From positions 97,317 through 161,316 of the forward strand of contig JAYZQJ010000128.1 in the NCBI GenBank assembly GCA_036149055.1: a stretch of 64,000 bases of DNA. The letters run 5' to 3'. The stretch comes from Myxococcota bacterium. Lineage in GTDB: Bacteria; Myxococcota_A; Polyangia; Polyangiales; Sandaracinaceae. This document shows, piece after piece, positions 50,501 to 53,500 of the stretch. The position numbers are program-made. The first letter of the stretch is position 1, and the number at the start of each line of letters is the position of its first letter.

Positions 50501-53500
50501 CCCACTCCAACTCCTGCATGGCCGCGAACGCCGGAGCGAGCATCGCCTCCGTGGGTCCCTGTCCCTAACGGATCCCACCCACAGCCCCGTGCCCGTGCCC
50601 CTGCCCGCAAAGCCCTCGTAGCTGAGCGACCGGGACGATCCTACTCATTCATCCGACTCGTCCCGCCCCGCGAGCGCCCACGAGCGCCAGGAACGATCCT
50701 GACCTACAGAGGCGACGGACACTTCACGGCGGGTCCGGAGTGGACGCGTTCAATGACGGGGATCGTCCCTGGGCGCCGGAGCTAGCCCCGTCGCGTCTCG
50801 GCTTCGCGATCGGTCACCTCCCAAGGCCACGAGCGTGGCCGCCGCGGCGACGGCGTACAGGCCCGGGCGCAGGAGCGCGATCCAGTCCCGGGGCGTTCCC
50901 AGGAACGCGTCGCCCCAGAGCGACTGCGTCGCGGCGAAGGTCGCGGCCTCCCGGGTGAGCTCGAGCGTGAGGCCGAGCACGGCGACCGCGCCGCACCCGA
51001 CTCGCATCGCTCTGACGCCTCGCGCGGCAGTGCGCGCGTGGAGGACGCTCGCGGCGCCGGCGAGCAGCAGGGCGCCCCAGGCCATCCCGGCCGCGGCGTC
51101 GAGACGGACCACGTCCGCGAGCGCCTCCGGCGTCGGGGTGAGCAGGGCCGCGCCGGCGCGCGCCAGGATGACGGCGTGACCACACGACGCCGCGAACGCG
51201 GCGAGGCAGAGCACCCACCACGCGCGCCGGCCGACCAGGGCGAGCGCGAGCGCCGCGAACCCCGCGCCGCCCATGAGCCACGCTCCGCGCAAGAGCGCGT
51301 CGGCCAGCGCCGCGCCTCGGCGATACACGGCCACCTCGGGCCCGGAGCGGATCACGCGCTCGAGGATCCCCATGCCGTGGAGCAGCGCGAGCAGCGCGAG
51401 GATGGCGAAGGTCGCGACCAGGAGCGCGCGAGCGAGCGGGCGGTGGCTGTGCATATGCGAGGCAGCATGAGGCGGCGTCGTGGTCGAGACGACTCGCGCG
51501 GGCGCACGCCTCTCGCCCTGTATTCTCCGGGCCGCGCCACCCCTCTGCGCCACCCGTTCACGTTTCGCGGCGCCTCGTCGCCTCTATCGCGACGCGCGCC
51601 AGTGTCGCGATGGAGGCAACGAGGCGAGGGCAACGACGAGCGCGGTGACGGCGCTCGGTGCGGCCGGCGACGAGCGAGCAGAAGCGGCAGGCACGATCCT
51701 ATTCGTTCATCGAACTCGTCCCTCTCTGGCAGCCGACCTCCGCCGAGTCCGACGCCGAGGCCGAGTCCGGCGCCAAGTCCGAGTCCGACTCCGACGCCGA
51801 GTCCGGCGCCAAGTCCGAGTCCGACTCCGACGCCGAGTCCGACTCCGACTCCGAGTCCGACTCCGACGCCGAGTCCGAGACCGAGACCCTCGTCGTCAAC
51901 GCATATCAGGGGAGGAGGGAGGAGGGAGGCGAGGAGGAATAGCTGTAGCCATCCACGGCGCCGCCCCCCGCCTCCGGTCTCGCCGCTGCCGTCGGTGCCG
52001 CTCCGGCCCCGCTGCCGCTACCGGGCCCGCTGCCGCTCCCGGCCCCGCTGCCGCTGCCGCTGCCGGCCCCGCTGCCGCTCCCGGCCCCGCTCCCGCTGCC
52101 GCTGCCGGCCCCACTGCCGCCGCCGCTGTCGGCCCCGCCGCTGCCGCTCGCTGGCATCGCGGCCTCCGGTCCGTATGAGAGGCAGACGTGTTGGCGCCTC
52201 GTCCTCCTCCTCTGACGGTGCCGGACGCGGCCGGGCGAGTAAAGGACGCCTGCGGCGCCGGCTTCGCCGGCTTCGCTCGCTGCGCTCGCTCGTCCCTGAC
52301 TAGCCCGGCCGCGCCCGGCCCGGGAGGAGTCGGAGGACGATGCGCGACACACCGTCGACGCAGGTTGCCTCTCTCGGAGAGAGCGATGCTGAACATCACC
52401 TCGGAAGCGATCGACTGGCTCACCCGCGTCCGGCCCGTCTGGGAGACCATCGCGAAGCACGACCGCAATCTCGCTCGGCAGCTGCGCGACAGCGCGTCGA
52501 GCGTCGTCGGCAACCTCGGCGAGGGCGAGAACCGGCGGGGCGGGCACCAGCGCGAGCGGTTCGAGACGGCGTACGGCTCCGCCGGCGAGGCGCGCGTGTG
52601 GCTGCTCGCGGCCGCCGGGCTCGGCTACGTCAGCCAGGAGACCGTCGCGCCGCTCGCCGACTGGGCCGACAAGGCCCGCGCGGTGACGTGGAAGATGATG
52701 CGCTGATCGACCGCGGCGGCTCCGGCCTCGGTCGGAGCCGCCGCTCCCCTCGAACGCAGGGACGATCTTCCCCGTCTCCCCGACACCCAGCATCAGCCCC
52801 GTCGGGCCCCTCCGGACGGGAACGCCCCAGCCCTCCACCGTTCTCTGTTCGTGCCGAGTCCGACTCCGAGTCACGCCGAATCCGACGCCGAGTCCGAATC
52901 CGAGTCCGAATCCGAGTCCGAATCCGAGTCCGAATCCGAGTCCGAATCCGAATCCGAATCCGAATCCGAGTCCGAGTCCGAATCCGAGTCCGAATCCGAG
53001 TCCGAATCCGAGGCCGAATCCGAGTCCGAGGCCGAGGCCCTCGTCGTCGACGCATTCAGGGGAGGCGGGAGTAGGGAGGCGAGGAGGAATAGCTGGCACC
53101 ATCCACGCGCTTGTCTCGCTGCCGCCCTCGCTGTCGCTGCCGCTGCCGGCCTCCGGGAGCCTCCCGCCGCCCGACACGCGCCCCCCAGCTCCGAGACGCG
53201 GCCCCCTGCTTCCCCGACGGGCGCCCTCGCCCTCTTTTCTCCGGCCCCGAGACGCGCCCCCCGGCCTCCGGGACGCGCCCCCCAGCCTCCCCGACGACCT
53301 CCCCCAGTCCCCCGAGGCGCGCCCCCAGCCTCCCACATCGTCTCCCCCGGCTCGACGAGCGCGCCCCCCAGCCGCCACATCGCCTCCCCCAGCCCGCGAG
53401 ACGCGCCCCCCAGCCTCCCCGACCCCCTCCCCCAGCCCCCGAGGCGCGCCCCCCGGCTCCGCGACGCGGGGGACGGCGGGGGATCATCGCCGGGAGCGGG

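What a model noticed while it worked through the whole genome (the two positions that open the first line are those of the whole stretch)
51684..53084. Transposase-less mobile cassette: branched DNA hairpin + four-helix-bundle (IVP/Avd-like) gene, flanked by hypervariable [...]
Four-helix-bundle (PF05635) genes here are not lone genes but the core of a ~0.55-kb cassette: a conserved ~200-nt leader folding into a long branched hairpin, the 106-107-aa gene and (subfamily A) a 3' hairpin, set between hexamer arrays that differ from copy to copy. It has no transposase yet occupies different sites in sister genomes, so it moves. Nine called genes in two subfamilies, one cut copy and three leaders at contig ends (C4, C8, C25, C55, C128, C259, C89, C114, C177; C35, C124, C156, C164).
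Evidence so far: Copies 90-98% identical in protein with aligned leaders. Expanded on its own in relatives: 22 matches in G036, 12 in G022, at other sites. Filled/empty sites: G036 carries it between bioB/g01873 and kbl/ansA homologues, which are 109 and 122 bp apart here. Periodic arrays in 27 of 30 cassette loci, 9 of 30 PF05635 loci across the class (6- and 7-mers), 1 of 52 control loci. T-N-C triloops (GNA on the other strand) 19 of 84 against 4.8% background.
(Added by a program. Inside this text positions count along the whole contig: contig position 97,317 is position 1 of the stretch shown here. "Call 12" and the like, gene names such as g00115 and contig names such as C1 are that model's own, and its searches are not shown. 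The text may have been shortened before it was handed on; [...] marks where a part breaks off. The agent that wrote the report below was given it as the finding of a first reader that could run no searches.)

Follow-up and report, generated by a model that had tools for sequence, protein, structure and literature searches.

The report
Repeat-bounded mobile four-helix-bundle gene
A small gene of unknown function, framed by a folded leader and short tandem DNA repeats, changes place between related bacterial genomes without a known transposase, and relatives in distant bacteria are framed by similar repeats, which may explain where such repeats come from.

Summary
Confirmed and wider than reported. 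Window 52171-52744 is a cassette: a branched hairpin leader, a 106-aa PF05635/TIGR02436 gene with the Avd/IVP fold, and a UNCG-capped 3' hairpin, set between hexamer arrays. It moves: sites filled in one genome are empty in sister species, in three genera. Copies are under purifying selection (pN/pS 0.09-0.15) and recombine freely.

The arrays are not private to it: G000 has 219, 72 inside called genes. Yet this is the only large gene family beside them (9 of 9 called cassette genes), and gene number tracks array number over 40 genomes (rho 0.65). Distant PF05635 genes carry 6-8-mer arrays too, mostly inverted (7 of 8 plasmid, 16 of 22 GTDB loci; controls 1 of 47).

The RAYT guess is not supported: six genomes with 7-16 copies, two of them closed, gave no Y1 match. 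RT counts do not track it either. Best reading: a selfish element whose own Avd-like protein is needed for spread, with host recombination acting at the arrays (0.45). The mechanism is inferred; no ends, intermediates or activity were shown. I found no description in the papers searched.

The parts
51693..51717 (+). Module M1, a REP-like short repeat, 63 copies in G000; same orientation as the gene at all cassettes where it was found
51743..51885 (+). Left hexamer array, CCGAGT/CCGACT type, with 18- and 36-bp higher-order periods
51887..51948 (+). Module M2 (about 62 nt, purine-rich 3' half), 124 copies in G000; repeated directly at 53038-53098
51996..52149 (+). Second left array, CCGCTG/CCGGCC type, abutting the leader
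52171..52385 (+). Conserved leader: long stem (52198-52207 pairs near 52332-52340) with a branched tip at 52237-52303 bearing T-N-C-looped hairpins (GNA on the other strand); ribosome-binding site just before the ATG
52386..52706 (+). 106-aa four-helix-bundle gene (PF05635/TIGR02436; fold of BT_0352, Xcc0516 and DGR Avd)
52713..52744 (+). 3' hairpin, 14-bp stem with a G-T pair and a c(UNCG)g-type loop; resembles the Avd-binding RNA stem-loop of DGRs
52759..52773 (+). Module M1b, variant REP-like repeat, 34 copies
52853..53037 (+). Right hexamer array, CCGAAT/CCGAGT type, same orientation as the left arrays
53038..53098 (+). Second copy of M2; with the arrays it makes a direct composite repeat on both sides of the cassette
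53115..53150 (+). Short CCGCTG-type array closing the right composite unit
50569..54141 (.). Whole G000-specific island between two convergent genes; about 43 bp between the BLAST ends in G001. It also holds a 267-aa ORF (50750-51553, no NCBIfam hit) and an unrelated repeat at 53830-54140

Best explanation
A minimal selfish mobile element: one Avd/IVP-fold gene between short tandem arrays (direct or inverted); in this order it has also gained a branched leader and, in subfamily A, a UNCG stem-loop. SHOWN: it changes sites between sister species, lands mostly in tight gaps beside stop codons, has no sharp ends, its paralogous copies keep the protein under purifying selection and exchange sequence freely, and its copy number tracks the genome's array load. 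INFERRED: the protein, probably a ring like Avd and Xcc0516, binds the element's own nucleic acid (3' RNA stem-loop and/or the single-stranded leader with GNA loops on the template strand) and is needed for new copies to arise. The cutting and joining are done by host recombination or repair, with the arrays as priming and microhomology sites that pair with a seed at the target and then lengthen by slippage. Solo arrays and gene-less array pairs are the by-products and future landing sites, much as REPs are to a RAYT. No dedicated transposase, HUH enzyme or reverse transcriptase is required.
For: Mobility: three G001 sites are empty in G000 and the window site is empty in G001. Of 3 G019 sites searched in G003, 2 are empty. 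One G032 site is empty in 6 of 6 sister loci that gave both flanks (10 tried); another lacks the gene in 9 of 9 (11 tried), while the unit sits elsewhere in those genomes. Seeds: the empty G003 sites hold a short inverted array pair, or one unit-like hexamer at convergent stop codons; one sister of G032 holds a gene-less relic with arrays and T-N-C hairpins (L278). Selection: pN/pS 0.032/0.22 (10 pairs in G000) and 0.027/0.29 (60 pairs in G001); E46 and E68 are invariant in 90 homologues. Recombination: four-gamete incompatibility rises from 0.34 (<15 nt) to about 0.7 (>100 nt) in 13 G001 copies; 0 of 1000 permutations were as low. Gene-array link: of 148 called genes near 147 non-coding arrays, the largest family is this one, 9 members. 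Arrays lie beside 65 of 70 loci in this order against 22 of 241 random G000 genes, and beside 7 of 8 plasmid and 16 of 22 GTDB loci against 1 of 47 control windows. Spearman with arrays 0.65, with RT 0.17, with Y1 0.08, over 40 genomes. 12 of 17 genomes with 5 or more genes have 15 or more array matches, against 0 of 23 others. Xcc0516, the solved family member, has a GGGAATC array over its start codon (PMC4692102 supplement).
Against: No activity, intermediate or transcript was shown. Purifying selection could reflect a host benefit or addiction rather than a role in spread. 5 of the 7 G019 sites that could be compared are shared with G003, so movement is slow there. The three empty G000 sites hold no array, so a pre-existing array is not needed. 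The model is a plain four-helix bundle with no known catalytic site, and its net charge is only +2, whereas DGR Avd proteins are basic (PMC5758913 passage). The genome correlation is among kin, used one array pattern (5 gene-rich genomes with other units score low), and genome size also correlates (rho 0.39). The Xcc0516 case is one gene against a 5.8% base rate (242 of 4170). In G041 spread is better explained by an IS200-like transposase. The copies come from draft assemblies, so some mosaicism could be mis-assembly.
Confidence: 0.45

Rival explanations
1. Passive passenger or addiction-like gene. Arrays arise by slippage in repeat-prone genomes; the gene is kept because it helps or addicts the host (the leader hides the ribosome site, as in type I toxin-antitoxin repeats) and is carried between arrays by ordinary recombination, with no role in its own spread.
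For: Arrays far outnumber cassettes (153 islands against about 13) and also fill protein linkers in a lineage-specific way (72 of 219 inside called genes; one linker is periodic in G000 and non-periodic in G001). Direct composite repeats flank the window copy. Copies are mosaic. Leader stems in several subfamilies end at the ribosome-binding site.
Against: In the closed genomes G003 and G019 every CTGACR-type match lay beside a PF05635 gene, and 800 kb of spaced samples held 3 arrays. Other genes do not hitchhike the same way. The gene-plus-array anatomy recurs across phyla with different units. Copy number runs from 0 to 32 among kin.
Confidence: 0.22
2. RNA-mediated retro-mobility. The protein acts as in DGRs: the ring binds the 3' UNCG stem-loop of the element's transcript and recruits a reverse transcriptase in trans; the cDNA is the strand with GNA loops and integrates at array seeds.
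For: The fold matches Avd (Z 13.4, rmsd 2.1, 102 aligned). Avd binds an 11-bp stem with a UNCG loop (10.1101/2023.10.23.563531, section 8), and a matching hairpin follows 21 of 24 subfamily-A genes by pattern, 20 with an N-C-G loop closed as c(UNCG)g. G-T pairs favour the coding strand (467 against 336 with RNA energies) while GNA loops favour the template strand.
Against: PF00078 was not found in G020, G022 or G033 (7, 16 and 9 genes; 97, 86 and 92% complete), and RT counts do not track gene counts. 0 of 9 RT loci had a PF05635 gene within about 5 kb. G000's only RT is retron-like. Adenines are not over-mutated among copies (12 of 87 changes). The 3' UNCG hairpin was tested only in subfamily A.
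Confidence: 0.2
3. Non-autonomous single-strand element moved by an HUH enzyme in trans (RAYT, IS200/IS605 TnpA, IS91-type); the four-helix-bundle gene is cargo.
For: GNA-type loops suggest folded single-stranded DNA (the stability of GNA loops is recalled, not tested). In G041 (OZ242383.1) 98 PF05635 matches, largely in a unit with a 554-bp core, sharp ends, subterminal hairpins and tandem dimers, go with 20 PF01797 matches and a strong replichore bias, 22 of 84 on the leading strand, p 1.5e-5. REP-like modules sit beside the G000 cassettes.
Against: No PF01797 match in 6 of 17 gene-rich genomes, two of them closed. PF04986 was found in only 2 of 5 tested. G044 has 35 PF05635 matches and no PF01797 match. 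G000's RAYT-like genes carry a different REP. Ends fade into arrays; there is no replichore bias in G003 or G019. Rep and relaxase families were not tested.
Confidence: 0.12

Closest known systems
23S rRNA intervening sequences (IVS) encoding S23p/IVP (Leptospira, Coxiella; PMC4990558, passages read)
   Same: Same protein family (PF05635); a selfish, sporadic element with complementary termini. The paper says origin and function remain unclear and cites the idea that the ORF codes for a mobility component.
   Different: Not in rRNA. It lies in intergenic gaps at up to about 30 sites per genome, is bounded by tandem arrays (often direct here) and has a branched leader; RNase III excision was not tested.
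Diversity-generating retroelement accessory protein Avd (4DWL, 8UB7; bioRxiv 10.1101/2023.10.23.563531, section 8 and passages)
   Same: Same fold (TM 0.82, Z 13.4); a UNCG-capped stem-loop lies next to the gene.
   Different: No RT, template repeat or variable repeat in cis; no adenine-biased variation; weakly basic protein; multicopy and mobile.
RAYT/REP(IN) systems (general features recalled; PMC6006769 searched for six terms only)
   Same: Works like: a master gene framed by a repeat that is also scattered genome-wide, with gene-less pairs at empty sites.
   Different: The gene is not an HUH nuclease; the repeats are head-to-tail 6-8-mers, not palindromes; the genome's own RAYT-like genes use another REP.
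Genome-wide heptamer repeats of Xanthomonas and Nostoc (PMC4692102) and Beggiatoaceae (PMC4679880)
   Same: Degenerate short tandem arrays in intergenic gaps and inside genes, often as inverted pairs and next to stop codons. PMC4679880 says no mechanism is evident and suggests that a repeat-binding protein might be the mobile element.
   Different: In the passages and supplements searched, neither paper links the repeats to PF05635 genes, although Xcc0516 is listed as a repeat neighbour.
IS200/IS605-derived miniature elements (family features recalled)
   Same: No terminal inverted repeats or fixed target duplication; hairpins near the ends. It fits the distant genome G041.
   Different: The G000-type cassette has no sharp ends, no matching TnpA and no replication-strand bias.

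Membership tests
PF05635 / TIGR02436 four-helix-bundle protein | Profile score over the curated cut-off | tested here: met
   47.7 > 33.8; 44.6 > 24
[quoted passage not shown]
   pLDDT 97, four helices; Z 16.9 and 15.2, rmsd 1.5 and 1.7
PF05635 / TIGR02436 four-helix-bundle protein | Pentameric ring | not tested
   No complex prediction was obtained; the tool takes at most 4 copies
23S rRNA IVS | Located in a 23S rRNA helix | tested here: not met
   Lies between protein-coding genes; no rRNA match
23S rRNA IVS | Complementary termini forming a stem around the ORF | tested here: inconclusive
   Direct in the window and in 28 of 44 loci of this order; inverted in 12 of 44, 5 of 5 plasmid and 9 of 10 GTDB loci
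23S rRNA IVS | Excision by RNase III | not testable with these tools
   Needs RNA data; no run was listed
Diversity-generating retroelement | RT gene in the cassette | tested here: not met
   G000's one RT is retron-like and 3.6 kb from a leader at C177; 0 of 9 RT loci of relatives had the gene nearby
Diversity-generating retroelement | Adenine-specific variation (template and variable repeats) | tested here: not met
   12 of 87 changes start from A among G001 copies; no dedicated TR/VR search was run
Diversity-generating retroelement | Avd-binding stem-loop with UNCG/GNRA loop | tested here: inconclusive
   A similar hairpin follows 21 of 24 subfamily-A genes; binding was not tested
RAYT/REPIN | HUH (Y1) gene flanked by the same repeat | tested here: not met
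   9 PF01797 loci in G000; those visible have another REP or none; none found in 6 gene-rich genomes
IS200/IS605-derived miniature element | Sharp ends with subterminal hairpins | tested here: not met
   Ends fade into arrays in G000 and G001; met only in G041
IS200/IS605-derived miniature element | Orientation bias with replication | tested here: not met
   8 of 13 and 5 of 9 on the leading strand in G019 and G003, with the origin taken from dnaA and GC skew too noisy to confirm it
Classical MITE/IS | Fixed terminal inverted repeats and target duplication | tested here: inconclusive
   One site fits a 3-4-bp duplication of overlapping stop codons; two others show none
Rfam RNA families | Match at gathering score | tested here: not met
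   14 weak miRNA-type matches, all far below cut-off

The most novel reading that the evidence does not exclude
PF05635/TIGR02436 genes across bacteria are the autonomous core of an undescribed class of mobile element. Their Avd-like protein drives both the element's movement and the seeding or growth of the 6-8-mer tandem arrays that bound it, with no transposase or RT. The unexplained genome-wide hepta- and hexamer repeats of cyanobacteria, Xanthomonas, Beggiatoaceae and myxobacteria would be its non-autonomous litter, 23S rRNA IVSs would be copies that landed in rRNA, and DGR Avd would be a domesticated member.
Probability: 0.35. Interest if true: 0.93.

Novelty: categorically new. Interest (0 to 1): 0.8.

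Why it matters
It offers a testable function for a common 'hypothetical' protein family and a candidate cause for long 6-8-mer tandem repeats, for which the papers read state that no mechanism is evident. It turns the 1993 idea that the IVS ORF is a mobility factor (as cited in PMC4990558) into a direct experiment on a 0.55-kb unit. It would explain why these genes turn up inside cas and plasmid operons (PMC3936711 passage), and it bears on the origin of the DGR protein Avd. Even the weaker reading, a mobile gene bounded by arrays in several phyla, was not found in the papers searched.

Tried and rejected
RAYT/Y1 in trans: rejected for this lineage. IS91-type Y2: found in 2 of 5 genomes; not required. 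RT in cis: the C177 leader near the one RT looks like chance. Replichore bias: it looked perfect on a partial list and vanished with all copies and dnaA; sampled GC skew was too noisy to use. Rfam: nothing. Phage collection: no match. Sigma-70 promoter scan: 0 sites. A strict leader pattern found 0 of 121 genomes, including G000, so it is uninformative. One search used a wrong frame and was repeated; the C14 row was also out of frame. One search had a mis-registered structure string and is superseded. The per-leader z-scores rest on 12 shuffles and were not used. RNAalifold chose another outer pairing than the long stem I tested, so the outer stem is less certain than the tip. BLAST found no match between the G041 element and four TnpA loci; the likeness is at motif level only. 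No RNA holder was listed. No complex prediction was obtained. Earlier findings were not available. Integron attC: considered by eye from recalled consensus and dropped, not tested. Literature: 10 searches found no paper linking PF05635 genes to flanking arrays or mobility outside rRNA. Subscription papers and bioRxiv supplements were not searchable and could bear on novelty and on the Avd stem-loop comparison.
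Full report
THE LOCUS. G000 is a 9.9-Mb, 73% GC draft genome in 289 contigs; I take it to be a myxobacterium, by inference only. The window holds a 106-aa gene at 52386-52706 that passes the cut-offs of PF05635 and TIGR02436. Its AlphaFold model (pLDDT 97, four helices) matches BT_0352 (Z 16.9), Xcc0516 (15.2) and DGR Avd (13.4) best; by sequence only Xcc0516 matches in the PDB (E 0.003). 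In 90 homologues E46 and E68 are invariant. Upstream is a 215-nt leader that folds far better than shuffles (z -6.75). Downstream is a 14-bp hairpin with a c(UNCG)g-type loop. On each side lies the same composite, in direct orientation: hexamer array, module M2, second array.

COPIES. I add two leader stubs and a tenth PF05635 gene on C14 with short inverted arrays and no branched leader. Among 41 related genomes, 26 have PF05635 matches, with counts from 0 to 32. On 21 leaders from G000 and G001 the long stem and two tip hairpins are 96.9% paired with 22 compensatory cells, and no shuffle reached this (the rows are kin and the structure came from one of them). A shared core, a stem closing a variable number of small hairpins, aligns across about a dozen genomes. 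Of 120 predicted triloops in 74 upstream regions, 81 read T-N-C and 2 read GNA on the coding strand, while G-T pairs favour the coding strand. Both strands may therefore fold.

IT MOVES. Three G001 sites are empty in G000. The 3.6-kb island of the window is about 43 bp in G001. Between the closed genomes G003 and G019, five sites are shared and two are empty in G003; two fetched G019 sites were not tested. One empty site keeps a short inverted pair of arrays, between which the cassette sits in G019; the other keeps a single unit-like hexamer at convergent stop codons. In the genus of G032 the unit is a convergent pair of genes. One site is empty in 6 of 6 informative sister loci, where the neighbours' stop codons overlap by 4 bp; another lacks the gene in 9 of 9, one of which holds a gene-less relic with arrays and T-N-C hairpins. 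No sharp ends were found; one site fits a 3-4-bp duplication.

THE COPIES ARE SELECTED AND MIXED. Synonymous differences exceed non-synonymous ones about 7- to 11-fold within a genome (10 pairs in G000, the first 60 pairs of 18 copies in G001). Thirteen G001 copies are mosaics of one another, with mis-assembly a lesser caveat. Adenines are not preferentially changed.

THE ARRAYS. G000 has 219 CCGNNN arrays in 153 islands; 72 lie inside genes called by my own crude gene finder, as acidic linkers in both orientations, and some of those calls may be false. At least one such linker is non-periodic in the G001 orthologue. The arrays are thus far commoner than the cassette. Still, among 148 genes near non-coding arrays the only family above four members is this one. 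Arrays lie beside 65 of 70 loci in this order (24 truncated loci dropped) against 22 of 241 random genes; where both sides have one, 28 are direct, 12 inverted and 4 unrelated. The unit differs from genome to genome. In G003 and G019 the local unit occurred only beside these genes. Over 40 genomes gene count tracks array count (rho 0.65) but not RT (0.17) or Y1 (0.08) counts; size gives 0.39, and kin are not independent.

BEYOND THIS ORDER. Of 9 plasmid records I read 8 (seven cyanobacterial, one Gemmatirosa): 7 have arrays by script, mostly heptamers, inverted in all 5 with both sides, and two sit inside cas operons. Of 76 GTDB loci, 54 came from one chromosome; of the 22 scored (one from that chromosome), 16 have hexamer arrays, inverted in 9 of 10; control windows gave 1 of 47. 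Xcc0516 has a GGGAATC array over its start (PMC4692102, supplement S2 part 1 and searches), against a 5.8% base rate. The branched leader was not apparent in these distant loci. So gene plus arrays is the general unit, and the leader marks the expanded clade.

HELPERS IN TRANS. The RAYT-like genes of G000 carry their own REP (7 of 9 loci visible). Six genomes with 7-16 genes gave no PF01797 match, two of them closed; three gave no RT match, but these are 86-97% complete. None of 9 RT loci had the gene nearby. There is no replichore bias in G003 or G019. The exception is G041 (OZ242383.1): 98 matches, a unit with a 554-bp core and sharp hairpin ends, 20 Y1 matches and a strong strand bias (84 listed near-full matches counted). 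There the gene, still with its small inverted arrays, is best read as cargo of an IS200-like element.

MECHANISM. Shown: movement, selection, recombination, the tie to arrays, seeds at some empty sites. Inferred: the protein acts on its own element, and host recombination or repair at the arrays makes the joints (0.45). Rivals: passive or addictive passenger (0.22); RT in trans, favoured by the Avd fold and the UNCG hairpin that Avd is known to bind (10.1101/2023.10.23.563531, section 8) (0.20); HUH in trans (0.12). That the cassette is mobile at all I put above 0.9.

WHAT IS KNOWN. PMC4990558 (passages) calls the IVS a selfish element of unclear origin and cites Ralph and McClelland 1993, which I did not read, for the idea that its ORF is a mobility factor. 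PMC3936711 (one passage) notes these genes in cas loci; that passage says nothing of repeats or movement. PMC4679880 (abstract, passages, supplement search) finds no evident mechanism for heptamer repeats. PMC4692102 (passages) reports that its repeats were generally not associated with insertion sequences or transposable elements. PMC10053308 and PMC5758913 (passages) give the PF05635-Avd link and Avd's basic charge. PMC8700078 and PMC6006769 were term-searched with nothing relevant. Ten searches found no paper describing this anatomy; much of the literature is outside the library.

VERDICT. The feature is real, mobile and more general than first reported. It fails the defining tests of IVS, DGR, RAYT/REPIN and IS200-type elements, while working in part like each. 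The role of the protein is untested, which caps the score. Interest 0.8.

Noticed in passing
L132-L201 (G041, OZ242383.1): A closed 4.26-Mb chromosome with 98 PF05635 matches, largely in an IS200-like miniature element with a 554-bp core, sharp ends, tandem dimers and strong replichore bias; several copies have stops.
   Followed up: partly
L096-L100 (G032); also G004, G005, G007, G034, G044: Two different PF05635 genes in a convergent tail-to-tail pair move as one 1.06-kb unit in the genus of G032; similar pairs recur in other genomes, which hints at a hetero-oligomer.
   Followed up: partly
L085:5540-5990 and L093: Orthologous copies in G003 and G019 have terminal arms that differ between genomes yet are each nearly self-complementary, so the two arms evolve together; both lie beside what looks like a tRNA gene (by eye).
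   Followed up: partly
G000, 72 arrays, e.g. C17:19046 and C190:2729: The same hexamer arrays lie in frame inside called genes as ES/ET/DS linkers in both orientations; one G001 orthologue has a non-periodic linker, another a different array.
   Followed up: partly
window 51887-51948 and 53038-53098: Module M2 (124 copies) and REP-like M1, M1b and M3 (63, 34, 60 copies) keep a fixed orientation to the cassette: the same in subfamily A, M2 opposite in B. Their own mobiliser is unknown.
   Followed up: partly
   Followed up: no
window 50750-51553 (-): A 267-aa hydrophobic ORF inside the G000-specific island, with no NCBIfam hit.
   Followed up: no
window 54142-58731 (-): A 1529-aa fusion with an N-terminal succinylglutamate-semialdehyde-dehydrogenase-like domain and, by eye, aminotransferase and acetyltransferase parts; conserved in all five relatives searched.
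   Followed up: no
L071-L079 (G000 C132, C4, C83, C116, C198, C143, C29, C191, C144): Nine Y1 matches; at least four RAYT-like genes are flanked by clusters of an 18-nt REP, and two of another type lie at contig ends.
   Followed up: partly
L080 (G000:C177:9505-10863): The genome's only reverse transcriptase, retron-like, 3.6 kb from a cassette leader.
   Followed up: partly
L207:1177-1545 and L211:1129-1485: PF05635 genes between cas6 and cas4, and between cas10 and cmr3, on cyanobacterial plasmids, framed by short inverted repeats; they may be insertions rather than cas accessories.
   Followed up: partly
window 53150-53700: Two local blocks of longer imperfect tandem repeats, found only on this contig.
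   Followed up: no
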